A stretch of DNA of 64,000 nt, taken from assembly GCA_035530075.1 (NCBI GenBank), contig DATKVM010000005.1:87861-151860 (forward strand), written 5' to 3'. Under the pieces are notes generated by a model. That model worked only from the letters and a program-made list of their open reading frames with translations. It did not search any database and had not been told where the DNA came from. The DNA comes from Patescibacteria group bacterium. GTDB taxonomy: Bacteria; Patescibacteriota; Microgenomatia; UM-FILTER-40-11. This document shows positions 12,756 to 30,060 of the stretch, piece by piece (positions within the stretch are counted from its first letter, which is position 1; each line of letters begins with the position of its first letter). Position numbers and translations under genes: made by a program.

Positions 12756-12764
12756 ATGCTTGCT

Positions 12765-12803
12765 ACTAACTACTGGCTACTGGCTACTGGCTACTGGCTA
12801 CTA
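12765..12803. repeat. Tandem heptanucleotide repeat (ctactgg/ctggcta), about 5.5 copies
   Basis: ctactaa ctactgg ctactgg ctactgg ctactgg ctactat read directly; lies between the sortase stop and the ruvX start, and the last unit supplies the sortase stop codon. Confidence 0.9.
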
Positions 12804-15942: not shown

Positions 15943-17751
15943 CTATTCCAATATAGCATAAATCCGTCTTTTGCCGGCTCCCGATGATTCTTCTTTCGTG
16001 ATTTTGAACCTACCCAAGACTCCAGTCCGTTCCGCATGAGGACCGCCACACACCTCTTTGGAGAGTTCACCAATGGTATAAACCTTTACCTGCTCCGCAT
16101 ATTTTTGTTCAAAAAAAGCTAAAGCGCCTTTTTCTTTCGCTTCCGCCAACCCCATGGTTTCCGCCGTCACCGGCAAATCCTTTTCAATTTGCTCATTCAC
16201 TAAATCTTCCACTTCTTTAATTTGCTCCTCAGTTAATTTTTCCGGCCAAGTAAAATCAAAACGCAAACGCTCGGCAGTTAAGTTTGACCCGACTTGATGA
16301 ACTTCGGATCCCAAAACTTGCCGCAAAGCCGCGTGCAAAAGATGAGTGGCAGTATGGTATTTGACTACCTGTTCCGACTGATCAGCCAATCCCCCAGCAA
16401 ACTTCTTTTCCGCCCCCGCCCGGGAAAGTTTTTGATGCTCGGCCGAAGCTCGGTCAAATTCTGCTTCATTCACATTGATATCTTTTTCTTTGGCCATCTC
16501 GGCCGTCAGTTCAATTGGAAAGCCAAAAGTCTCATACAAGAAAAAGGCAGTTTTACCTGGTAGTTTTTCTCCACTCGGGAGCCCGCCGATGATTTTTTCA
16601 AATTCTTTAATCCCTCGGGATAAAGTCTTACTAAACCTTTCCTCTTCTTTACTCAATTCCGCCAAAATTTTAACTTTTTCTTGAATAATTTCTGGGTAAA
16701 CCTCGCCCATTGTCTCCATCACCGACTCGGCCACTTCGGTGGCAAAAGGTTTCTCAATCCCGAGCATTTTTCCAAAACGAATGGCTCTTCGGATTAATCT
16801 TCTTAAAACATAGCCCTGCTCCGTGTTTGAAGGAATTATTCCATCTGCAATCAAAAACGTGGCCGCTCTAATATGGTCTGCTATAATTCTGAACCGCTTC
16901 CTTACATCAACCCAGCATTGCTTACCATCCTTTATATACTCCTCATCTGACTTTTCGCCATATTTCAAACCCGATAATCCTTCAATCTTTTGAACAATCG
17001 GCCAAAGAACATCTGTTCTGTAAGCGTCATACTCATTGTTCATAACCATTAGCATCCGCTCGACCCCCATGCCCGTATCAATATTCTTTTGCTTCAGCGG
17101 CTCAAATCTTCCCTCGGCCGTACAGTTATACTGCATAAAGACATCGTTCCAGAATTCTAGATACTTTCCACAACCACAGCCGGGGCGGCAATCAGGCCCA
17201 CAGGCTTCCTCCCCTGTGTCGTAATACATTTCCGAGTCTGGCCCACACGGCCCAATTTTACCAGCCGGACCCCACCAATTATCTTTTTTTCCGAGAAAGT
17301 AAATTCTTTCTTTAGGAATGCCGACTTTCTCCCACAAAGCGGCGGTCTCATCATCGCGCGGAGCATCTTCATCCCCGGCAAAACAAGTGACAGAAATCTT
17401 CTCTTCTGGAATTCCCATCACTTTCGTCATGAATTCATAACTCCAAGGAATCATCTCTTTCTTCCAATAATCGCCAAGCGACCAGTTTCCCATCATCTCA
17501 AAAAATGTCTGATGGCAAGTATCACCAACCTCGTCAATATCCACCGTCCGCAAACATTTTTGGACACTGGCCAGTCTTTTTCCTAAAGGATGCGGCTCAC
17601 CCAAAAGATAGGGGACTAAAGGGTGCATGCCGGCGGAAATAAATAAAGTGGTGGGGTCATTTTCCGGAATCAGCGAAGCCGAAGGTAAAACCTTATGCCC
17701 TTTTTCCCTAAAAAAATCCAAATACTTTTTCCTAAGTTCTTTAGAAGTCAT
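15943..17751 (-). CDS. alaS: Alanine--tRNA ligase, short form (602 aa, lacks C-terminal DHHA1 region)
   Basis: MTSKELRKKYLDFFREKGHKVLPSASLIP...FTNAGM-like...editing-domain HTATHLLHAAL...CGGPH. Confidence 0.93.
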   Translation of the reverse strand: MTSKELRKKYLDFFREKGHKVLPSASLIPENDPTTLFISAGMHPLVPYLLGEPHPLGKRLASVQKCLRTVDIDEVGDTCHQTFFEMMGNWSLGDYWKKEMIPWSYEFMTKVMGIPEEKISVTCFAGDEDAPRDDETAALWEKVGIPKERIYFLGKKDNWWGPAGKIGPCGPDSEMYYDTGEEACGPDCRPGCGCGKYLEFWNDVFMQYNCTAEGRFEPLKQKNIDTGMGVERMLMVMNNEYDAYRTDVLWPIVQKIEGLSGLKYGEKSDEEYIKDGKQCWVDVRKRFRIIADHIRAATFLIADGIIPSNTEQGYVLRRLIRRAIRFGKMLGIEKPFATEVAESVMETMGEVYPEIIQEKVKILAELSKEEERFSKTLSRGIKEFEKIIGGLPSGEKLPGKTAFFLYETFGFPIELTAEMAKEKDINVNEAEFDRASAEHQKLSRAGAEKKFAGGLADQSEQVVKYHTATHLLHAALRQVLGSEVHQVGSNLTAERLRFDFTWPEKLTEEQIKEVEDLVNEQIEKDLPVTAETMGLAEAKEKGALAFFEQKYAEQVKVYTIGELSKEVCGGPHAERTGVLGRFKITKEESSGAGKRRIYAILE

Positions 17752-17878
17752 AATTTTCTTATTTCTTATCTCCTATTTCTTATTTCTTAAATAGAAGTAT
17801 ATCCCAAATCAGCCTCATGGGCAAACGGGAAAAAGCAGATGACGACAAAAAGAGTTCCTGGAAAAAAATTTAAAATAA

Positions 17879-17900
17879 CCCTTGGCCTCAGAATTTTCTC
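17879..17900 (+). repeat. Island motif copy 1 (degenerate): ccttggcctcagaattttctc
   Basis: Member of a 9-copy family with consensus tCCCCTTGCCCCCGAATTTTCTG; preceded by cctggaaaaaaatttaaaataac, which recurs at 18398. Confidence 0.6.
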
Positions 17901-17960
17901 ATCAAAGATTTCATAACTGTACTGTTGAAAGTTACCACATTTTTGTCATAATTAAATAAG

Positions 17961-18383
17961 ATGAGTTGGAGCAAAATTGTTTACCTTATTTTTTCAAACT
18001 TCTTGGCTTTTTTGTTTTATTATGTTGCAACCGCTTTCCTGTTTGATTATTCCCAATTTTGGTTGTTTTGGGTATTCTTCTCTTTGAATTTTGCCCTCTC
18101 CTTGGTTCTGATTTTAACCACAAAAAATAAAGGCATAAGCAAGAAAAGTTTTTTGTTGCATTTGGCTCCTGCAATTATCTTTATCGACATCTTTTTCCTT
18201 CCTTCAAAATTTTGCGGAACTGAAAGCAAAGGGGGAACCATAAGCTCATGTGAATGTCGGGGAATTCTAAAGAATAGGAGTCTTTTTTCTACTGCTTGTA
18301 TCGGCAAAAGGGTCAAGTGCTATGAGCATTTGCTCTATTCTCAAGGTGGAGGCGTAGTTGAAATACCTTGCCCCGATTACTAG
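17961..18383 (+). CDS. Hypothetical small membrane protein (140 aa)
   Basis: ORF with hydrophobic N-terminal half; plausible promoter TTGAAA-16-CATAAT upstream; bracketed by two copies of a 23-nt direct repeat. Confidence 0.3.
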   Translation: MSWSKIVYLIFSNFLAFLFYYVATAFLFDYSQFWLFWVFFSLNFALSLVLILTTKNKGISKKSFLLHLAPAIIFIDIFFLPSKFCGTESKGGTISSCECRGILKNRSLFSTACIGKRVKCYEHLLYSQGGGVVEIPCPDY

Positions 18384-18420
18384 AAAAAACTCAATATCCT
18401 GGAAAAAAATTTAAAATAAC

Positions 18421-18444
18421 TCCTTGTTTCCCTCCGAAATTCTC
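18421..18444 (+). repeat. Island motif copy 2 (degenerate): tccttgtttccctccgaaattctc
   Basis: Preceded by the identical 23-mer cctggaaaaaaatttaaaataac (18398-18420), as in copy 1. Confidence 0.6.
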
Positions 18445-18457
18445 TTAAAAGCACATA

Positions 18458-18949
18458 TCAGGGTAAAAGCTCTTGGAGGACTTGGTTGATAAATTCCCAC
18501 TGGCCGGGAAAGACAAAGTGACTGGAAAGGTTTTCTCTTTTAACCCACTTGACTTGACGAATCTCGTCTTTTTTAAATTTAATTTCTTTCATTGAACCAG
18601 TAAACTTTACCAAAAAATGCGTTTGTTGTTGACCTCTCCAAGTTTCACCTTCTTTTCTGAGCCTACTCAAAATTACTCCCATTGGCCATTCATATTGGCT
18701 GCGGTATTGACTAACGCCAATTAGTTCAAAATTACTGGTTCCCAACTCTTCTACTAGTTCCCTCAATAGTGCCCCCTGAGGGCTTTCTCCATCATCAATT
18801 CCTCCACCCGGAAACCGCCACTCGTTTTCTTTATAATCAACCATCTGGACAATCAAAAAATTGTTGTTTTTATCGACAACCACCCCTACTGTCCCCTGGC
18901 GATAACCAAGTTTTTCTATATCAATACTGTTTTCATCGATAGCCGCCAT
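18458..18949 (-). CDS. NUDIX hydrolase
   Basis: Nudix box GGGIDDGESPQGALLRELVEELG (G-x5-E-x7-REUxEExGU). Confidence 0.8.
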   Translation of the reverse strand: MAAIDENSIDIEKLGYRQGTVGVVVDKNNNFLIVQMVDYKENEWRFPGGGIDDGESPQGALLRELVEELGTSNFELIGVSQYRSQYEWPMGVILSRLRKEGETWRGQQQTHFLVKFTGSMKEIKFKKDEIRQVKWVKRENLSSHFVFPGQWEFINQVLQELLP

Positions 18950-19014
18950 TCGTAATCATATTTTACCAAATAATTATTTTCTTGCCTTACCTAACATTCT
19001 TCGATGCTTGATTT

Positions 19015-19110
19015 TTCTATGTTTATATTGAAAAGCCAGTTAAAACAGGTGTCGGTTCTGAATTCAGCGTTTTTGGGCCGTATAAGACCTGTTACACCTG
19101 GAAGCTATAA
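19015..19110 (+). pseudogene. 3'-terminal gene fragment homologous to the C-terminus of the 22203-22817 gene
   Basis: 19023-19110 is about 85% identical to 22721-22810, encoding ...EKPVKTGVGSEFSVFGPYKT..., but there is no upstream ORF; part of a direct repeat that also carries the island motif. Confidence 0.5.
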
Positions 19111-19162
19111 AGCTAGATAACAAAATAGCAATGTAACAATTTAACAATGGAACAATGAAATT

Positions 19163-19188
19163 CTCCCCTTTTCCCCCGAATTTTCTTA
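19163..19188 (+). repeat. Island motif copy 3: ctccccttttcccccgaattttctta
   Basis: 28 nt upstream of the ASCH-like gene ATG; followed by TGgTAAAAT extended -10-like sequence. Confidence 0.7.
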
Positions 19189-19215
19189 TTTCCCACTTCT
19201 GGTAAAATTAAAGAA

Positions 19216-19515
19216 ATGAACTGTATTCCTTTCCCTTCCTCCTACAAAAAGTCTCTGCTTAGTAAAACCAAAAACATAACGATTCGAATTAAGAATGAAT
19301 TGGGCAAATATAAAGTCGGAAAAATCTATAAAGCAACTTCTTGTTCCGGGAAAGAATGGGGTATTAGACTTAAAGTTAATCGGGTAAACAAAACCACGGT
19401 TGATAAACTATCAAGTTATGCTATCCCCCAAAAAACAATTAATCCACTTCTTAAAAAAGGAGATGTTTCACCCAAAAGTATGGTTGAAGTTGTTAGCTTT
19501 GAAGTAATTGATTAA
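19216..19515 (+). CDS. Small protein, possibly ASCH/PUA-like (99 aa)
   Basis: Size and the pattern ...KNITIRIKN...YKVGKIY...VVSFEVID loosely fit ASCH domains; weak. Confidence 0.35.
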   Translation: MNCIPFPSSYKKSLLSKTKNITIRIKNELGKYKVGKIYKATSCSGKEWGIRLKVNRVNKTTVDKLSSYAIPQKTINPLLKKGDVSPKSMVEVVSFEVID

Positions 19516-19539
19516 CTCACTTACTGGCACAATGTTTTT

Positions 19540-19570
19540 CTTTCCCCATTTTTGCCCCCGAATTCTCTGG
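19540..19570 (+). repeat. Island motif copy 4: ctttccccatttttgcccccgaattctctgg
   Basis: 40 nt upstream of the GNAT gene ATG. Confidence 0.7.
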
Positions 19571-19610
19571 AGCCAAATCATTCAACATTAGTTTTGTTAT
19601 AATCAGGACA

Positions 19611-20159
19611 ATGAAAAGATTTGAAATTCCAGTTGATAAGGATCTGGTTATTCAATCCTGGAAACTGGAAAGTGCGGCTGAATTATTTCAACTAACCGAT
19701 AAAAACAGGAAACAACTCCAAGGATGGTTAGTTTGGGTTCCAGAAACAAAGGGGGAAGAAGATTCCCGAAAATTCATCCAAAGGTGCCTTAAAGAGTATG
19801 AGGAGCAAACCGGTTTGGAATTGGGAATTTGGTATAAAGATAAATTAATTGGTTGTATCGGACTTCATGATATTAATAAAAACAGCCGAAGAGCTAGCAT
19901 TGGTTATTGGTTAGCAGCTGAATATCAAGGAAAGGGAATAATGACAAAGGCAGTCAGGAATTTAATAAATTTTGGCTTCAAGAAGCTCGATTTAAACAGA
20001 ATCGGTCTTGGGGCGGGAAAAGAAAACTTAAAAAGCCGAGCAATTGCTGAAAGACTAGGATTTACCCAAGAAGGAACTTTAAGGAAATATGAGTTTATTG
20101 ATGGCCGATTTGTTGACCATGTAGTCTACAGTATTCTTCAAGAAGAGTGGAAGGGATAG
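19611..20159 (+). CDS. GNAT family N-acetyltransferase (RimL/RimJ-like)
   Basis: ...IGCIGLHDINKNSRRASIGYWLAAEYQGKGIMTKAV...RIGLGAGKENLKSRAIAERLGF typical of RimL-type GNATs. Confidence 0.8.
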   Translation: MKRFEIPVDKDLVIQSWKLESAAELFQLTDKNRKQLQGWLVWVPETKGEEDSRKFIQRCLKEYEEQTGLELGIWYKDKLIGCIGLHDINKNSRRASIGYWLAAEYQGKGIMTKAVRNLINFGFKKLDLNRIGLGAGKENLKSRAIAERLGFTQEGTLRKYEFIDGRFVDHVVYSILQEEWKG

Positions 20160-20169
20160 AATTAAAGAG

Positions 20170-20508
20170 ATGCGGCCCATTGCCCCTTATTTAAAAAAGA
20201 ACCGACTTCTTTTTTGGAAAATAATCCTTTGGTTGATTTTGCTTTACGCCATCCAACACACAGTAAGAGATATCCTTCAGCAGTTCTTTGGAATTAATAA
20301 TGTCTTTACGGGATTCGCTCACAGAGAAGCCTCGAACGCCATCTGGTGCGGGCAGTATTGTAAATGGACCACTCTTCCGGTAAAAATCTTTTATATCTTT
20401 TCCTCAATTTATCTCTTGCGGAAGCAAAAATTTGGTTGGTTGGGATGGATGATGATTATCATTATTATCCCTGTTCTTCTTCAATACCTCGACCTTATTA
20501 TTAAATGA
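20170..20508 (+). CDS. Hypothetical membrane protein (112 aa)
   Basis: Two or three hydrophobic segments; only ORF-level support. Confidence 0.3.
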   Translation: MRPIAPYLKKNRLLFWKIILWLILLYAIQHTVRDILQQFFGINNVFTGFAHREASNAIWCGQYCKWTTLPVKIFYIFSSIYLLRKQKFGWLGWMMIIIIIPVLLQYLDLIIK

Positions 20509-20533
20509 GATTCCCCCTTGCCCCAAATTTTCG
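20509..20533 (+). repeat. Island motif copy 5: attcccccttgccccaaattttcgg
   Basis: Immediately after the stop of the 20170-20508 ORF; no plus-strand gene follows directly (a minus-strand gene does). Confidence 0.6.
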
Positions 20534-20542
20534 GTTTTTCTT

Positions 20543-20914
20543 TTAGCGAAAAAGGCGTTCCATGGAGAAATACGAAGAATGGATTATCTCTCCTACTTCC
20601 AAAAACCTAAAAACTAGGATAGTCACTAAATTCACCACTAAAAATATTGTCAGAATTTTTAATGGCCTGGTTTTGCTTTTAAACCAGAGGAAAGCAAACA
20701 AAAATAATTCCGCTAAACTCATAAATATTCCTAAATACAACGGCTGGGTTTCATTATAATGGAGATTTAAAGCCGGGAAAGGAAGATAAAACAAAAACCC
20801 TTGCCCAAGCAGTAAGCCGTCAGAAGGGAAAATTTTATTAGCAAGAGAATTCCCAACCACCAAAAAAAGAGAGTAAAGCAAAATTGCCGTCGTCCCTTTT
20901 ATTACCTTGGCCAT
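20543..20914 (-). CDS. Hypothetical polytopic membrane protein (123 aa)
   Basis: Four hydrophobic helices; the only minus-strand gene inside the island. Confidence 0.4.
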   Translation of the reverse strand: MAKVIKGTTAILLYSLFLVVGNSLANKIFPSDGLLLGQGFLFYLPFPALNLHYNETQPLYLGIFMSLAELFLFAFLWFKSKTRPLKILTIFLVVNLVTILVFRFLEVGEIIHSSYFSMERLFR

Positions 20915-20929
20915 AGTCTAATTGTATCA

Positions 20930-20955
20930 CTTTCCCCTTGCCCCCGAATTTTCTG
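20930..20955 (+). repeat. Island motif copy 6: tttccccttgcccccgaattttctga
   Basis: About 95 nt upstream of the ATG at 21053; TATAAT at 21037-21042. Confidence 0.7.
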
Positions 20956-21052
20956 AAGTCTTATTCTGGAAGAAAAATTGCTTGGGAAACCTGGAACTCT
21001 CTAAACCTATAATTTGACAAAGTTTGGAAAGCTTTCTATAATTCCAACCCAT

Positions 21053-21574
21053 ATGGCAACAGAAGATTTAACCGGCAGGCAAGACATCCCAGTTTCACGG
21101 ATCCGAACCTTGCAAGAAGGTGTTGAAGACGTAAGGACTCTACTTGGAGGAATGACAGATACGATTTTGCCTCAAGGTAGAGAGGTAATTCAACTACAAC
21201 GAGAAAATTATCAATCAAGAACCTTCCAAAGAGCAGCTTTTGATGCAATGCCAGAAAGGTATGGTCGCTTCGATAGGTCTCTAATCATTATCACTTTTGA
21301 CAATAGAGCCCAAACATTTATCGTAACCGGAAGAACTTCGTCAGGAAATCCTTTTGAAGTAATGCACGCAACAATGGAGGGTTTAGATTTAAGAGGAACA
21401 CATACTGTAATCTATGAATATGACGGAAATGAAACCATTGTTGAAAGAAATCCCACGGGAGAAATTAACACTTGCCAGGGAGAATACGGCAAACCGGAAG
21501 CATTACTGCCACTTATCAGAAAAAGATTGGGTATCTTAGTGGGGGAGGAATTTATACAACCCCAAGAAGGCTAA
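21053..21574 (+). CDS. Hypothetical protein (about 173 aa from ATG 21053; the ORF track starts at TTG 21014)
   Basis: MATEDLTGRQDIPVSRIRTLQEG...; no recognisable domain; TATAAT 10 nt upstream of the ATG. Confidence 0.5.
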   Translation: MATEDLTGRQDIPVSRIRTLQEGVEDVRTLLGGMTDTILPQGREVIQLQRENYQSRTFQRAAFDAMPERYGRFDRSLIIITFDNRAQTFIVTGRTSSGNPFEVMHATMEGLDLRGTHTVIYEYDGNETIVERNPTGEINTCQGEYGKPEALLPLIRKRLGILVGEEFIQPQEG

Positions 21575-21589
21575 TCTCTTCCAAGCTAA

Positions 21590-21617
21590 TTTTTCCCCTT
21601 GCCCCCGAATTTCCTGA
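21590..21617 (+). repeat. Island motif copy 7: tttttccccttgcccccgaatttcctga
   Basis: Followed by TGgTAGAAT and the ATG of the NUDIX gene 20 nt later. Confidence 0.7.
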
Positions 21618-21636
21618 TTTCTGGTAGAATTGGGTT

Positions 21637-22155
21637 ATGGCTGATTTTCAAAAAGTCCCAAAACTGGGAGATGAATATTTATATATCCCTTTTGTCGGGG
21701 CAATCATTGAAAGAAGTTTCCAGGGAGAAAAACAAATCTTAGTCCAAACCAGGGTAAAGAAGGTGGATGTAAAATACAGCGGCAGTTTGGAAATTCCTGG
21801 GGGAAAATTAAGGGCCTTTGAAGATGTTTACGAAACCCTAAGAAGAGAGGTAAAAGAAGAGTGCGGCTTAGAACTTATTTCTATTGAAGGAGAGGATAAG
21901 AGAGAGTCGTTTATCAACCGAGAGGATAAATCAGACTTGATTGAACCGCTCTGTGTTACTCAAATGAAAAATGGTCCATTTATTGGCTTAATTTTTCTTT
22001 GCCGAGCGGAAGGGGAACCTTTAATCAAAACCGATGAAACGAAAGAGGCTCAATGGATGAACGTTAGTGAACTGAAGAAAATCGTTGAAGAAACTCCGGA
22101 ACAAATATATACTGCTTTTTTGGCTCCTCTGAAAAAATATATAAGGCAAGTTTAG
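21637..22155 (+). CDS. NUDIX hydrolase (second, divergent)
   Basis: Nudix box GGKLRAFEDVYETLRREVKEECGL. Confidence 0.75.
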   Translation: MADFQKVPKLGDEYLYIPFVGAIIERSFQGEKQILVQTRVKKVDVKYSGSLEIPGGKLRAFEDVYETLRREVKEECGLELISIEGEDKRESFINREDKSDLIEPLCVTQMKNGPFIGLIFLCRAEGEPLIKTDETKEAQWMNVSELKKIVEETPEQIYTAFLAPLKKYIRQV

Positions 22156-22160
22156 TAATT

Positions 22161-22177
22161 GTTCCCGAATTTTTTGA
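22161..22177 (+). repeat. Island motif copy 8 (truncated): gttcccgaattttttga
   Basis: Followed by GGTAGAAT and the ATG at 22203. Confidence 0.5.
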
Positions 22178-22202
22178 TTTCTTCTTTTGGTAGAATTAGT
22201 AA

Positions 22203-22817
22203 ATGAGTAATATCGCTTCAGCAAAAGCATTTGGGCGCTTTGCAACTTCAATAATCCCTCAAAAAGCCACTGATCAAGAAAAAATAGAAGTTATCCAAAA
22301 AGCAGCCAAAAGATACAACTCAGCTGCAGAACCCGAAAAACAGATTTCTCTTTTGTATCATTTTACTGACACGCAAGGAGCGCAGGCAATCAAAGAAACG
22401 CAAATAATAGGTAGAAGAGGGGCAAGACTATATCTTACCCCCGTTTCTCCTAAAATGGCTCAACCATTATGTTCGCCTGAAAATGCCCGCGGGTATGAGA
22501 AATATTTTCGGGACAAAGTTATGCCGGCAAACCTAAAAGAACACTTGGAAAGATTTGTTCTCGGACTTAAGTTTAAATGGGAATATGGTATCCAAATGAA
22601 GGCAAGACAAAAGAAAGGAGAAGCAGTTATTCCCGTTGGAGCTCACAAGCTGGAGAATGTGTTCGCGCTAGCCACTAAAGTCAATAACCCCTCTCTTAAA
22701 AGAGACCAGCAGGGAGAAATTTATATTGAAAAGCCCGTTAAAACAGGTACCGGTTCTGAATTTAGCGTTTTTGGACCGTATAGGCCTGTTACGCCTGGAA
22801 GGTATAAAGCTAGATAA
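22203..22817 (+). CDS. Hypothetical protein (204 aa); its C-terminus is duplicated as a fragment at 19015-19110
   Basis: No domain recognised; ...LLYHFTDTQGAQAIKETQIIG...; 3' end followed by a GC-rich hairpin at 22837-22880. Confidence 0.55.
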   Translation: MSNIASAKAFGRFATSIIPQKATDQEKIEVIQKAAKRYNSAAEPEKQISLLYHFTDTQGAQAIKETQIIGRRGARLYLTPVSPKMAQPLCSPENARGYEKYFRDKVMPANLKEHLERFVLGLKFKWEYGIQMKARQKKGEAVIPVGAHKLENVFALATKVNNPSLKRDQQGEIYIEKPVKTGTGSEFSVFGPYRPVTPGRYKAR

Positions 22818-22898
22818 CGAGATAACAATCTAGCAACCCGCCTGCCTTCGCCTAATGGCAAAACCCATGGCGGGCAGGTGTAACAATGAAACAATAGA

Positions 22899-22925
22899 AT
22901 CTCCCCTTGCCCCCGAATTTTCTGA
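22899..22925 (+). repeat. Island motif copy 9: atctccccttgcccccgaattttctga
   Basis: Part of the 22713-22927 direct repeat that matches 19015-19190. Confidence 0.7.
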
Positions 22926-23109
22926 GGCCGGTTTTGGACTTTGGGGTAACTTATGTTTGCCTGTTAAAGGCTATTGTGATATACTACTTTCAGAACAGAT
23001 TGGAACTAATCAATTTGTTTAAATTTGATTTTGCCTCTCGAAGGACAGAGACTTCTCCAATTTAGACAGCTTCATTCGTTTACAATCAGTTTGCAGGAGG
23101 AGGCAGTCA

Positions 23110-23374: not shown

Positions 23375-23671
23375 TTATTTTTTCTTGCGCCAGAAGAACC
23401 TTTTGCTGGGCTTACTTATTTTCTTCACTACCGGCTCAATCTTTTCCGGTAATTCTTCTACCTTTTCCAAAACCGCTTTCCCCAGCTCTCCCCCTTTTTC
23501 CGCCGCTTCTTTACTAAAATCTTCCAGGCTCTCCAAAATCTCTTTACCTTTGGCAATCAGTTTCTTTTTATCTTTTTCATCTGCCACGGCCAAATAGGAA
23601 GCCACTGCCCCGGCTAACCCACCAACAACTATCCCTAGCCAAAAGCCATTGTGATTTTCTTCATTCTCCAT
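23375..23671 (-). CDS. YtxH-like small membrane-anchored protein
   Basis: N-terminal TM with GxxxGxxxA spacing followed by a K/E-rich coiled region. Confidence 0.45.
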   Translation of the reverse strand: MENEENHNGFWLGIVVGGLAGAVASYLAVADEKDKKKLIAKGKEILESLEDFSKEAAEKGGELGKAVLEKVEELPEKIEPVVKKISKPSKRFFWRKKK

Positions 23672-24654: not shown

Positions 24655-26721
24655 TTAACCTTCCTGGGAAGCGTAATCGCCGGCATTTTTCATTAACACT
24701 TCTCTTGGTTTGGCTCCCTCTCCCAGGCCAATAATGCCTGCCGCTTCCAGCTGGTCAATAATGCGAGCCGCCCGGTTATAACCAATCGATAGTCGCCGCT
24801 GCAGCAAAGAAGCGGAGGCCCGGTCAAACTGGCAAACAATTTTCACCGCTTCCTCAAAAAATTCATCTCGGTCGCCGGCACCCCCCGCCCCACCGCCAGC
24901 AGCTGGTCCCACATCTTCCGTCACTTCTTCGGTATAAACCGGCCGGACGCCGGTTTTGTTCAGGAATTCAATGAGCTTCTGAACCTCACCATCGGAAACA
25001 AAAGCACCTTGAATCCGACTCGGTTTAGCCTGATCCGGCGGAATATAAAGCATATCTCCTCGACCCAAAAGCTTCTCCGCCCCCGGGCTGTCTAAAATTA
25101 CCCGAGAGTCAGTCATTGAGGCGACGGCAAAGGAAAGCCGGGCCGGAATGTTGGCCTTAATTAAGCCTGTCAAAACATCAACGGAGGGTCGCTGAGTCGC
25201 AATCACTAAGTGAATTCCTGTTGCTCGGGCCATTTGGGCCAGGCGGCAGATATTATCCTCCACTTCCGCCGGGGCAAACAAAATAATATCAGCCAGCTCG
25301 TCAATGATAATGACAATGTAGGGCAAGGCCTGGAAACCGGAAAGCTCATTAAACATTTCAATATTACGCGCTCCTGCCTGGGCAAAGAGCTTGTAGCGAC
25401 GGTCCATTTCCCGAGTGGCCCACTTTAAAGCCTTAACGACATTTTCCGGCTCGACAATCACCGGCGTTAGCAAATGAGGCACACCGGCGTATTGAGTGAA
25501 TTCTACTCGTTTAGGGTCAACTAAGATTAGTCTCACTTCAGAAGGAGTGGTCCGAAAAAGGAAAGTGGAAATCCAAGAGTTAAGGAGAACCGATTTTCCG
25601 CTACCGGTTTGGCCGGCAATCAAAACATGAGGCATTTTACTGATGTTGGCTGTTTTTGGCTGGCCAGAAACATCTAACCCCAAGGGGGTCAAAAGCTTGT
25701 TTTTTGGATCGCGCATCGCGGAGCTACTAAGAATTTGCCTTAGGGTCACTATTTCCAAAGAGCGGTTAGGCAGTTCAATTCCCACTAAAGACCGGCCGGG
25801 AATCGGCGCTTCCACCCGGATTTGGCCGGTCGGGGCCGCTAAAGCTAAGGCTAGGTCATTGGCTAAAGCGGTAATTTTAGAAAGCTTGGTCCCTAAAGCA
25901 ACTTCAATCGCATATTGAGTCACTGCCGGCCCATCATTAATTTCCACCACCCGGGCAGAAATGCCAAAAGAATCAAATGTCCGTTCAATGGTCGCCGCAT
26001 TGGTCTTTACATCCCCTCGGTCTGCTTTACCCCCGGCACTATCAATTAAGAGCGAAAGGGGCGGATAATTCCAAACCGCATTTTGCGCCCCCGGCACATT
26101 GGCTGCCGCTGCCGGTAAATCTTCGATTTCATCTGTCCCCGGCTTTGTCTGCTCCCGAGTCATTTCAGAACGAGTCACCACCGATTTATTCCCCAACTTC
26201 CCCTGAATAAATTGAGGGGTCTTCGCTTTACCCGAGACGCCTCTAAAAGAGCGGAAAAATTCCAAAACCGCTAAGATAATTTGGTCAAATGAAGTATTCG
26301 AAAGAACCACAAAACCAACCAGGGTGCAACTCACCAAAACTAAATAAGTCCCCACCGGCGTGATTAAATAAGCCAACTGGGCAAAAATTTGCTCGCCCAC
26401 CAAACCGGACTTAGTTAAGCTCATTAAGGCCGTGGCCATCAACCCTCCACCCGCTAAAACCGCCGCCTGATTCCAGGGAAGGTCAAACCGCGTCAGCATT
26501 AACCCGCCTAAGAGGGAGAAAAAAACCAAGAAAATCGTTCCCCAGCCGAAAATCTTTAACAAAAACAAATTGAGTTGATATAAAACTATTCCCTGTTGAG
26601 TAAAAGAAAGCGCTACCAATAAGGCAAAACAAAAAAGGAAAATGTAAGAAATAGAGTAAAGGGCGTCTTTTTTAAGCTTCAGCCGAAAACGGCGCTTTAA
26701 CCAACCTTTTCTCCTGGCCAT
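24655..26721 (-). CDS. ftsK: DNA translocase FtsK/SpoIIIE
   Basis: Four N-terminal TM helices; Walker A GQTGSGKS; gamma domain ...LLQRRLSIGYNRAARIIDQLE. Confidence 0.92.
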   Translation of the reverse strand: MARRKGWLKRRFRLKLKKDALYSISYIFLFCFALLVALSFTQQGIVLYQLNLFLLKIFGWGTIFLVFFSLLGGLMLTRFDLPWNQAAVLAGGGLMATALMSLTKSGLVGEQIFAQLAYLITPVGTYLVLVSCTLVGFVVLSNTSFDQIILAVLEFFRSFRGVSGKAKTPQFIQGKLGNKSVVTRSEMTREQTKPGTDEIEDLPAAAANVPGAQNAVWNYPPLSLLIDSAGGKADRGDVKTNAATIERTFDSFGISARVVEINDGPAVTQYAIEVALGTKLSKITALANDLALALAAPTGQIRVEAPIPGRSLVGIELPNRSLEIVTLRQILSSSAMRDPKNKLLTPLGLDVSGQPKTANISKMPHVLIAGQTGSGKSVLLNSWISTFLFRTTPSEVRLILVDPKRVEFTQYAGVPHLLTPVIVEPENVVKALKWATREMDRRYKLFAQAGARNIEMFNELSGFQALPYIVIIIDELADIILFAPAEVEDNICRLAQMARATGIHLVIATQRPSVDVLTGLIKANIPARLSFAVASMTDSRVILDSPGAEKLLGRGDMLYIPPDQAKPSRIQGAFVSDGEVQKLIEFLNKTGVRPVYTEEVTEDVGPAAGGGAGGAGDRDEFFEEAVKIVCQFDRASASLLQRRLSIGYNRAARIIDQLEAAGIIGLGEGAKPREVLMKNAGDYASQEG

Positions 26722-29978: not shown

Positions 29979-30060
29979 TGATTAATTTTAACACACCCAA
30001 GGCTAAGAGCGCCATTTTGAAAATCGCATTGTATACTTAGTTAACTAGCTTTCCAATTTT

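What the first reader, a model, noticed from the sequence alone, without database searches (positions are those of the whole stretch)
19015..19190. Direct repeat carrying a 3' gene fragment plus the island motif (19015-19190 vs 22713-22927)
About 175 bp ending at motif copy 3 is roughly 85% identical to the 3' end of gene 22203-22817 plus its downstream sequence ending at motif copy 9. The 22.8-kb copy has a roughly 55-bp insertion containing a GC-rich hairpin (22837-22880). The 19-kb copy retains only the last 30 codons (EKPVKTGVGSEFSVFGPY...) with no upstream ORF. This is the footprint expected if cassettes are excised or exchanged at a site inside or just after the gene 3' end, or of an older tandem duplication. 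A second shorter repeat, cctggaaaaaaatttaaaataac, is perfect at 17857-17879 and 18398-18420 and brackets the 17961-18383 gene.
Basis: seen in the sequence. Interest (0 to 1): 0.6.

Follow-up and report, generated by a model that had tools for sequence, protein, structure and literature searches.

The report
Dead gene-cassette copy in CPR island
The repeat is the leftover tail of a second, now dead copy of a small accessory gene; it lies in a gene-cassette island of an uncultured Microgenomates (CPR) bacterium whose cassettes are separated by one conserved 22-base motif, arranged like an integron but without an integron's defining parts.

Summary
Window 19022-19186 matches 22720-22923 at 145 of 166 columns (87%) once a clean 42-nt hairpin insertion (22837-22878) is removed. 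The sequences on either side are unrelated. The 19-kb copy holds the last 30 codons of a diverged copy of the 204-aa gene, its AACAAT-rich spacer and the motif CCCCTTGCCCCCGAATTTTCT ("J"). It has a 1-nt frameshift, no start codon and no promoter.

The surroundings explain it. A ~5.3-kb island of ten small genes, most with their own leaderless-type promoter, sits between alaS and a ytxH-like gene. J occurs nine times, always on the + strand whatever the gene's strand, and nowhere else in the 64 kb. Five related Microgenomates genomes form one AlaS clade and carry J islands with different, partly shared cassettes at this spot. Three outgroup genomes have an empty site, and a fourth has a few genes there but no J. 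Homology between cassette copies stops at J's 3' edge. Two more 3' gene remnants lie in the window.

It is not an integron: no recombinase gene in the window and no attC-like folding. Best reading: a remnant left by deletion in a cassette array joined at J. What J does is unproven. The remnant is ordinary; the array is moderately novel.

The parts
19022..19111 (+). Remnant: last 30 codons (with a 1-nt frameshift) of a second, diverged copy of the 204-aa gene. No start codon, no promoter.
   Evidence: It is 92% identical to 22720-22782, and the homology starts abruptly at 19022.
19112..19164 (+). 3' spacer of the dead cassette, with three AACAAT repeats. It corresponds to 22818-22901 minus the 42-nt insertion.
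   Evidence: (D3, D9).
19165..19186 (+). J motif copy 3 (CCCCTTTTCCCCCGAATTTTCT). The repeat ends at its last base.
22203..22817 (+). Intact 204-aa gene, a member of a very small protein family with a weak, sub-threshold Tox-ART-HYD1 match. It is the last cassette of the array and sits in the same position as P0002 in L010.
22837..22878 (+). 42-nt GC-rich hairpin, a clean insertion without target duplication. It is unique in the window and in all fetched loci, and absent from the remnant and from the L010 ortholog.
22902..22923 (+). J motif copy 9 (TCCCCTTGCCCCCGAATTTTCT), the last J of the array.
17846..17899 (+). Remnant of a NUDIX gene's 3' end (17846-17879, which includes the 24-nt repeat 17856-17879) plus degenerate J copy 1 (17880-17899).
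   Evidence: (89% identical to the 3' end of the L010 NUDIX gene).
18397..18445 (+). Second copy of the 24-nt NUDIX-tail repeat (18397-18420) plus degenerate J copy 2 (18421-18445). Together with 17856-17899 it brackets the 140-aa gene cassette.
   Evidence: (D19).
19545..19568 (+). J copy 4, after the 99-aa gene.
20511..20533 (+). J copy 5 (degenerate), between the 112-aa gene and the 3' end of the minus-strand 123-aa gene.
20933..20954 (+). J copy 6 (perfect consensus), on the 5' side of the minus-strand 123-aa gene.
20960..21012 (+). Remnant: last 15 codons (GRKIAWETWNSLNL*) of a 159/161-aa gene that is intact in L099 and L224.
   Evidence: (89% identical to L099).
21594..21615 (+). J copy 7, after the 186-aa gene.
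22157..22175 (+). J copy 8 (degenerate), after the NUDIX gene 21637-22155.
17752..23109 (.). The whole cassette island: ten small genes and three gene remnants, with lower G+C (0.37-0.39, against 0.42-0.49 in the flanks). It lies between alaS (15943-17751, minus strand) and the block of an 87-aa gene and ytxH-like genes.

Best explanation
The 19-kb element is the dead, 5'-truncated remnant of a second copy of the cassette that now ends the island, i.e. the 204-aa gene, its AACAAT-rich spacer and the J motif.

The island is a lineage-specific array inserted in the alaS / ytxH-like spacer of one clade of Microgenomates (CPR). Its units are small accessory genes, and eight of the ten have their own leaderless-type promoter (a -10 box 6-11 nt before the ATG, usually with an upstream TG). 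The units are joined by a conserved, non-palindromic, unstructured 21-22-nt linker J (CCCCTTGCCCCCGAATTTTCT), which always lies on the same strand.

Shown: the homology, the truncation and frameshift, the position of the breakpoints, the array architecture, and its distribution among relatives.

Inferred:
(1) The 204-aa cassette was duplicated within the array, or re-acquired from a very close relative, after the split from the L010 lineage.
(2) An illegitimate, microhomology-type deletion then removed its promoter and first ~515 bp. The part next to J survived because J is conserved.
(3) Cassettes are gained, lost and reordered by recombination between J copies. The enzyme is unknown and is not encoded in the window.
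(4) The 42-nt hairpin entered the intact copy later.
For: Repeat and truncation:
- The remnant has a frameshift and lacks a start codon and an upstream ORF.
- The remnant is about 90% identical to the resident gene, whereas the L010 ortholog is 78.6% identical over the whole gene.

Array architecture:
- There are nine J copies, all on the + strand, including those beside the minus-strand genes 18458-18949 and 20543-20914.
- There is no strong J elsewhere in the 64 kb.
- Eight of the ten island genes have a -10 box (usually TGnTAnAAT-like) 6-11 nt before the ATG.

Comparison with relatives:
- The same spacer is empty in L218/L219, L220/L221 and L226.
- It holds J-separated cassettes of different content in L010, L099/L222, L223 and L098+L224/L225.
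- The five J-bearing genomes form one clade in an AlaS tree.

Breakpoints at J:
- The remnant vs the intact gene.
- The M48 cassette in L223 vs L225: all but two of the 83 columns up to GAATTTT are identical, and the sequences are unrelated after it.
- The 123-aa cassette in the window vs L099.

Other deletion remnants and one microhomology fusion:
- NUDIX tail at 17846-17879, also present in L223 and L224.
- Tail of the 161-aa gene at 20960-21012.
- The L099 161-aa gene is fused to the NUDIX tail at the shared CCTGGAA.

Cassette mobility or strong constraint: the 123-aa cassette is 88% identical between the window and L099, against 71-79% for core genes.
Against: - No recombination event was observed. 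All nine assemblies of this strain (L001-L009) have the same island order.
- No recombinase, integrase or transposase domain was found in any ORF of at least 110 aa in the window, so the enzyme for inferred step 3 is hypothetical.
- Because the J-bearing genomes form one clade, much of the patchy cassette distribution could be differential loss from a larger ancestral array rather than active exchange.
- J could be conserved for a function unrelated to recombination.
- Only 5 coding differences precede the frameshift, too few to tell whether the remnant diverged while it was still functional.
Confidence: 0.65

Rival explanations
1. J is primarily a cis-acting expression signal, for example a factor-dependent, orientation-specific terminator or insulator for + strand transcripts that run towards the convergent ytxH-rodZ-ftsK genes. 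Under this view the rearrangements and remnants are only by-products of having many short direct repeats, and there is no dedicated cassette system.
For: - No intrinsic terminators lie between cassettes: the count is at shuffle level and none sits at a cassette end.
- J is C-rich, G-poor and less structured than shuffled sequence (z = 0 to +1.8), as expected for Rho-loading regions (my own knowledge).
- A uniform + orientation fits the need to stop + strand read-through.
- The 24-nt perfect repeats around the 140-aa gene and the CCTGGAA fusion in L099 show that short-homology events happen here.
Against: - J is conserved base for base across species whose alaS genes are only about 71-76% identical (19 of 19 core positions in the window and in L223). 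That is far more specific than known Rho-loading sites.
- J occurs only in this island, not after other genes, in 64 kb plus about 100 kb of related loci.
- Several J copies follow the 5' end of a minus-strand gene, where no + strand gene ends.
Confidence: 0.2
2. J is the recombination site of a dedicated, integron-like site-specific system whose recombinase is encoded elsewhere in the genome. 5'-truncated copies such as the 19-kb remnant are direct products of the mobilisation mechanism (one-ended or rolling-circle, or reverse-transcription-primed from the J end) rather than later deletions.
For: - All four remnants are 3' ends. Three are contiguous with J, each with a different 5' limit.
- All roughly 19 J copies in five genomes are direct repeats in one orientation.
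- Breakpoints are sharp at J's 3' edge.
- A Y1/HUH (RAYT-like) gene lies at the alaS-proximal end of the array in L010 and L099/L222.
Against: - There is no recombinase or reverse transcriptase gene in the window.
- The RAYT-like genes are flanked by their own GTAG-hairpin REP sequences (read) and are absent from three of the five J-bearing islands.
- J has no hairpin or dyad symmetry, which known HUH, integron and Xer sites need.
- One remnant (the 161-aa gene tail) lies downstream of a J and is not joined to one at its 3' end.
- The remnant is about 10% diverged from the intact gene, so the event is old, and no circular junctions or variants are seen.
Confidence: 0.15
3. The repeat is a simple recent in-situ tandem duplication or an assembly artefact that collapses or joins two strain variants.
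For: Short-read contigs do break at this repeat. The Logan contig L007 runs from 19119 to 22968, i.e. from repeat to repeat.
Against: - Several independent assemblies from different samples and assemblers, including a 255-kb ENA contig and a 63-kb JGI contig, span both copies with 99.8-100% identity.
- The copies differ by about 10% plus a 42-nt insertion and are separated by 3.7 kb holding six genes, at least one of them ancestral to the clade. This is neither recent nor tandem.
Confidence: 0.03

Closest known systems
Chromosomal integron cassette arrays, and CALINs (clusters of attC sites lacking an integrase)
   Same: - An array of small accessory genes (NUDIX, GNAT, methyltransferase, small membrane proteins, unknowns), mostly but not always in one orientation.
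- Each unit is followed by a repeated boundary element in a fixed orientation.
- Array content differs between close relatives at one chromosomal site.
- The boundary element is homogeneous within the lineage.
   Different: - There is no IntI gene nearby.
- J is 21-22 nt, non-palindromic, and does not fold. It has no R''/L''/L'/R' architecture and no GTTRRRY core.
- Cassettes carry their own promoters, whereas integron cassettes are mostly promoterless.
Neisseria 'minimal mobile elements' (cassettes exchanged between conserved flanking genes by transformation and homologous recombination; recalled from my own knowledge)
   Same: - A fixed intergenic hot spot between conserved housekeeping genes.
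- The site holds different gene content, or nothing, in related genomes.
- The window's island contains no mobility gene.
- Pilus (PilN/PilO) genes are present in the window.
   Different: Minimal mobile elements are single units without an internal repeated linker motif. Here up to ten units are chained by J, and remnants show internal deletions.
Gene remnants (truncated pseudogenes) left by deletion in decaying genomic islands
   Same: Homology to an intact paralog, loss of the 5' part and promoter, a frameshift, and no conservation of reading frame.
   Different: Nothing essential. This is what the 19-kb element itself is. The only unusual point is that the surviving parts are repeatedly the 3' ends, three of the four directly next to the conserved linker.
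REP/RAYT systems and IS200/IS605-type HUH elements
   Same: - A RAYT-like Y1 gene with GTAG-hairpin REPs lies at the alaS end of the island in L010 and L099.
- The 42-nt hairpin entered without a target duplication, as HUH-mobilised hairpins do.
- All J copies lie on a single strand.
   Different: - J is not a hairpin.
- The 42-nt hairpin is unique, lacks the GTAG and does not resemble the REPs of L010 or L099.
- There is no RAYT gene in the window.

Membership tests
Integron / CALIN | IntI-type tyrosine recombinase adjacent to the array (required for an integron, not for a CALIN) | tested here: not met
   Pfam scans of all ORFs of at least 110 aa in the 64-kb window, plus all island ORFs, found no integrase, recombinase or transposase domain. 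None is called in the islands of L010, L099, L223 or L224 either, apart from a RAYT-like Y1 gene.
Integron / CALIN | attC sites: imperfect inverted repeats (R''-L''...L'-R') that fold as single-stranded DNA, with a GTTRRRY core at the cassette boundary | tested here: not met
   Junction regions folded as ssDNA on both strands give z-scores from -0.6 to +1.8 against shuffles. No local inverted repeats were found. No GTTRRRY is visible at the boundaries (sequence).
Integron / CALIN | Array of short cassettes separated by same-orientation boundary repeats, variable between relatives | tested here: met
   Nine J copies on one strand separate ten genes. Content differs in five related genomes and the site is empty in three.
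Xer/dif-based modules (IMEX, pdif modules) | 28-bp site made of two 11-bp partly palindromic arms around a 6-bp centre | tested here: not met
   J and the longer NUDIX-tail + J junction lack dyad symmetry. Cumulative GC skew shows no switch at the island. The dif consensus was compared from memory only.
REP / RAYT (REPIN) | Short palindromic repeats with a 5' GTAG, in many copies, plus a RAYT gene | tested here: not met
   J does not fold. The 42-nt hairpin is single-copy and has no GTAG. No Y1_Tnp hit in the window. RAYT-like genes with GTAG hairpins exist only in L010 and L099/L222.
Truncated pseudogene (gene remnant) | Significant homology to an intact gene, with loss of the start and 5' part and a disrupted frame | tested here: met
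   87-92% nucleotide identity to 22720-22923, only the last 30 codons remain, a 1-nt indel, and no upstream ORF.
Polymorphic-toxin 'orphan' C-terminal modules (Rhs/CDI-type) | A 3' fragment that encodes an alternative toxin tip plus an immunity gene, lying downstream of a full-length toxin gene | tested here: not met
   The fragment is the same C-terminus as the intact gene, not an alternative tip. It lies 3.1 kb upstream of that gene's start and has no paired small gene. The toxin assignment itself is weak: Tox-ART-HYD1 E = 1e-3 with 20 bits against a 25-bit cut-off, and the fold search gave no match with E <= 0.001.
Minimal mobile element-type hot spot | Different inserts, or none, between the same conserved flanking genes in related genomes, without mobility genes | tested here: met
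   The alaS and ytxH-like/rodZ-like/ftsK flanks are conserved in nine genomes. The spacer holds 0, 3, 4, 5, 7, at least 7, or 10 genes. Exchange by transformation was not tested.

The most novel reading that the evidence does not exclude
J is the recombination site of a previously undescribed cassette-capture system in CPR bacteria. It would resemble an integron in logic but use a short, unstructured, strand-specific site and an unknown trans-encoded enzyme. The repeated 5'-truncated 'gene tail + J' units would be products of that mechanism, for example one-ended or rolling-circle copying, or reverse-transcription-primed copying that starts at J.
Probability: 0.15. Interest if true: 0.8.

Novelty: new variant of a known kind. 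Interest (0 to 1): 0.42.

Why it matters
By itself the repeat is an ordinary gene remnant. Its value is as a marker. Together with the other remnants and the comparison of nine related genomes, it shows that a clade of Microgenomates keeps an array of self-promoted accessory genes at one chromosomal spot, chained by a base-for-base conserved 21-22-nt linker that is neither an attC, a dif site, a REP nor a terminator hairpin.

CPR bacteria have tiny genomes, and little is known about how they acquire and shed accessory genes. A cassette array of this kind would be a concrete, testable mechanism. The five J-bearing and four J-less genomes give a ready-made comparison for finding the factor that recognises J.

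Tried and rejected
Searches that gave nothing useful:
- Exact-pattern scans for J (CCCCTTGCCCCCGAATTTYCT) in genome contigs and metagenome contigs, and a shorter version in viral contigs, all returned zero. The source organism is evidently not in those collections.
- A metagenome scan with the AT-rich NUDIX-tail repeat gave 117 stretches. After filtering, only one (L198, the same organism as L010) was relevant.
- The search for related loci with AlaS in genome contigs returned only distant relatives, plus one 70% hit whose contig ends before the island.
- Rfam at gathering threshold over the whole window and at E-value threshold over the island gave no meaningful match. No tRNA genes were found.
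- The 204-aa family has no relatives in viral contigs.
- Literature searches found no description of such arrays in CPR.

Function of the 204-aa protein:
- The AlphaFold2 model is poor (mean pLDDT 62.5) and Foldseek against the PDB gave no match with E <= 0.001.
- An exhaustive profile search found only 21 representative clusters. The ADP-ribosyltransferase idea therefore stays a weak lead.

Ideas rejected:
- J as a promoter element. The distance from J to the -10 box varies over 9, 15, 16, 19, 26, 29, 39, 48 and 82 nt, and some J copies face the 3' end of a minus-strand gene.
- Sigma-54, ECF-sigma, dif and Ter resemblances were checked by eye and none holds.
- The 55-aa ORF 22855-23022, called as a gene in some assemblies, is unrelated to the 55-aa ORF that follows the homolog in L014.
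- Population variants were sought in nine assemblies of the same strain. None affects the island order.

Full report
**Observation.** The repeat exists as described.
- The repeat finder reports 19022-19084 vs 22720-22782 (63 nt, 92%) and 19085-19139 vs 22782-22836 (55 nt, 85%).
- A global alignment of 19022-19186 with 22720-22923 gives 145 identical of 166 columns (87%; 90% of ungapped columns) after removing 22837-22878. The 30 nt beyond either end are 13% and 27% identical, so both breakpoints are sharp.
- The left breakpoint lies inside the coding sequence, at 19022 = 22720.
- The right breakpoint is the last base of the motif...GAATTTTCT|.
- The extra segment in the 22.8-kb copy is a clean 42-nt insertion between AGCAA and TGTAACAAT. 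It forms a GC-rich hairpin (-12.5 kcal/mol, z = -2.3), is unique in the window and in all fetched loci, and is absent from the ortholog in a related genome. The insertion is therefore the derived state.
- The 19-kb copy encodes VYIEKPVKTGVGSEFSVFGPYKTCYTWKL*. This matches the conserved C-terminus of the family up to a 1-nt indel. It has no start codon, no promoter and no upstream ORF.
- The shorter perfect repeat at 17856-17879 and 18397-18420 is also confirmed.

**Setting.**
- The window is chromosomal DNA of a Patescibacteria (Microgenomates/Shapirobacteria-like) MAG from metagenomes. It carries rpoB/C, ribosomal proteins, alaS, proS, ftsK, dnaK and similar genes, and no recombinase or transposase domain in any sizeable ORF.
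- The region 17752-23109 has lower G+C (0.37-0.39). It holds ten small genes: two NUDIX genes, one GNAT gene, three small membrane proteins and several unknowns.
- It lies between alaS (minus strand) and a block of an 87-aa gene, two ytxH-like genes, a rodZ-like HTH gene and ftsK.
- Eight of the ten island genes have a -10 box (usually TGnTAnAAT-like) 6-11 nt before the ATG, implying leaderless transcripts. Some core genes (ftsK, proS) show the same. Each cassette is therefore its own transcription unit.

**The motif J.**
- CCCCTTGCCCCCGAATTTTCT occurs nine times in the island, five strong and four degenerate copies, always on the + strand. This includes the copies beside the minus-strand genes 18458-18949 and 20543-20914. 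There is no strong copy elsewhere in the 64 kb.
- The distance from J to the next -10 box varies from 9 to 82 nt, so J is not a promoter element.
- The junctions do not fold as single-stranded DNA on either strand (z from -0.6 to +1.8) and have no local inverted repeats. They are therefore not attC-, REP- or dif-like.
- No intrinsic terminators lie at the cassette ends, and there is no Rfam match.

**Related genomes.** AlaS homologs and homologs of two cassette proteins led to the same chromosomal site in eight other species-level genomes.
- Empty site: in L218/L219, L220/L221 and L226 the ytxH-like gene is followed by alaS after 50-130 bp.
- L100 has three genes and no J. They include the ortholog of the window's minus-strand NUDIX gene at a core-like 74% identity.
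- J-separated cassettes of different content occur in four other genomes, with every J in the same orientation relative to alaS:
  - L010: RAYT-like, NUDIX, methyltransferase, and the 204-aa ortholog.
  - L099/L222: RAYT-like, NUDIX, 161-aa gene, 123-aa gene, def.
  - L223: seven genes.
  - L098 + L224/L225: at least seven genes.
- In a neighbour-joining tree of AlaS, the five J-bearing genomes form one clade and the J-less ones lie outside it. The array probably arose once at this site and then diversified.
- J is identical at 19 of 19 core positions in the window and in L223, although their alaS genes are about 71-76% identical.

**Cassette junctions.** Where the same cassette sits in different contexts, the homology ends at J's 3' edge.
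- The remnant vs the intact gene.
- The M48 peptidase cassette of L223 vs L225: all but two of the 83 columns up to GAATTTT are identical, and the sequences are unrelated after it.
- The minus-strand 123-aa cassette of the window vs L099: 88% identity over 371 nt, against 71-79% for core genes, ending 5 nt after J.
- Conversely, the same downstream gene (204-aa, 159/161-aa, def) is preceded by different cassettes, with homology resuming just after J.
- J is therefore the linker at which the units are joined.

**Other remnants.**
Only its last ~34 nt plus J survive in the window (17846-17899, 89% identical to L010). About 60 nt survive in L223 and L224.
- Window 20960-21012 is the last 15 codons of a 159/161-aa gene that is intact in L099 and L224.
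- In L099 that gene is fused to the NUDIX tail at a shared CCTGGAA, which is a microhomology junction.
- The left limits of the remnants differ (30, ~11, ~20 and 15 codons) and share no motif.

**Interpretation.**
- The 19-kb element is a deletion remnant of a duplicated, or re-acquired, 204-aa cassette in an array whose units are joined at J. Deletions are frequent in these islands.
- The parts next to J persist because J is conserved.
- How cassettes move is not shown. Recombination between the directly repeated J copies is the simplest reading, whether by an unknown trans-encoded site-specific enzyme or by short-homology recombination.
- Rivals are that J is an orientation-specific expression signal such as a factor-dependent terminator, or that the 5'-truncated 'tail + J' units are direct products of an unknown copying mechanism that starts at J.
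- No structural variants were seen among nine assemblies of this strain, so nothing here demonstrates ongoing activity.

**Comparison with known systems.**
- The architecture works like a chromosomal integron or CALIN, and like the Neisseria-type inter-genic hot spots. It fails the defining tests for an integron (no IntI, no attC structure) and for Xer/dif and REP/RAYT elements.
- The remnant itself is a standard truncated pseudogene.
- The 204-aa protein belongs to a very small family: 8 clusters at 90% identity and 21 representatives at 50%. It has only sub-threshold similarity to HYD1-type ADP-ribosyltransferase toxins and no usable structural match.

**Verdict.** The repeat itself is ordinary. 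The J-linked cassette array it belongs to is a moderately novel variant of integron-like organisation in CPR bacteria, and the mechanism behind it is unresolved.

Noticed in passing
L010 8040-8560 and L099 9430-10060 (minus strand): A RAYT-like Y1 (IS200-like) gene lies directly next to alaS at the start of the island in two related genomes. It is surrounded, and apparently interrupted, by GTAG-plus-hairpin REP-like sequences (GTAGGGGCGAATCACGATTCGCCC in L010, GTAGGGGTTTTGCGTGCAAAACCC in L099). The window has neither the gene nor these repeats.
   Followed up: partly
window 17925-17960, 18950-18970, 19198-19215, 19598-19610, 21620-21636, 22187-22202, 24722-24735, 29979-29995: Many genes have a -10 box (usually TGnTAnAAT-like) only 6-11 nt upstream of the ATG and no Shine-Dalgarno sequence. 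This implies leaderless mRNAs for most island cassettes and for some core genes (ftsK, proS), while other core genes have normal GGAGG leaders.
   Followed up: partly
window 22837-22878: A 42-nt GC-rich imperfect hairpin was inserted without a target-site duplication into the 3' spacer of the 204-aa gene. It is single-copy in everything fetched, and its origin is unknown.
   Followed up: yes
window 22203-22817: The 204-aa protein family is extremely rare: 21 representative clusters among 1.84 billion. It carries an HFTD motif with a sub-threshold match to the HYD1 ADP-ribosyltransferase toxin domain. One distant hit (P0149, 1200 aa) also shows sub-threshold HYD1 and PARP matches.
   Followed up: partly
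L014 537-793 and 2560-2645: In a Hainich groundwater CPR contig the homolog of the 204-aa gene lies in a different context. It sits beside a tRNA-like sequence split by about 200 nt, with a second copy of the tRNA-like 3' end downstream of the gene, which looks like an integration site duplication. ARAGORN called no tRNA there. That contig also has its own repeated intergenic element (AGCCTAAARTTTGAAAAGCCT... at about 2449 and 3499).
   Followed up: no
window 12756-12795: A tandem heptamer repeat (AGTAGCC)n lies immediately upstream of the ruvX start codon on the minus strand.
   Followed up: no
window 21014-21042: A perfect TTGACA-17-TATAAT promoter lies directly after the remnant of the 161-aa gene and before the 186-aa gene, whose likely start is the ATG at about 21053 rather than the TTG at 21014.
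   Followed up: no
L220 9885-9910 (minus strand): The otherwise empty alaS/ytxH spacer of one outgroup genome contains CTTCCCCGGAATTTCG in the opposite orientation. This weakly resembles J (12 of 19 positions) and is probably chance.
   Followed up: no
window 23375-23671 vs L005: One assembly of the same strain (JGI 3300031566) has a 24-nt indel somewhere in the aligned 12-kb stretch and calls this ytxH-like gene as 90 aa instead of 98 aa. I did not check that the indel lies in this gene. It is the only length variant seen among the nine assemblies.
   Followed up: no
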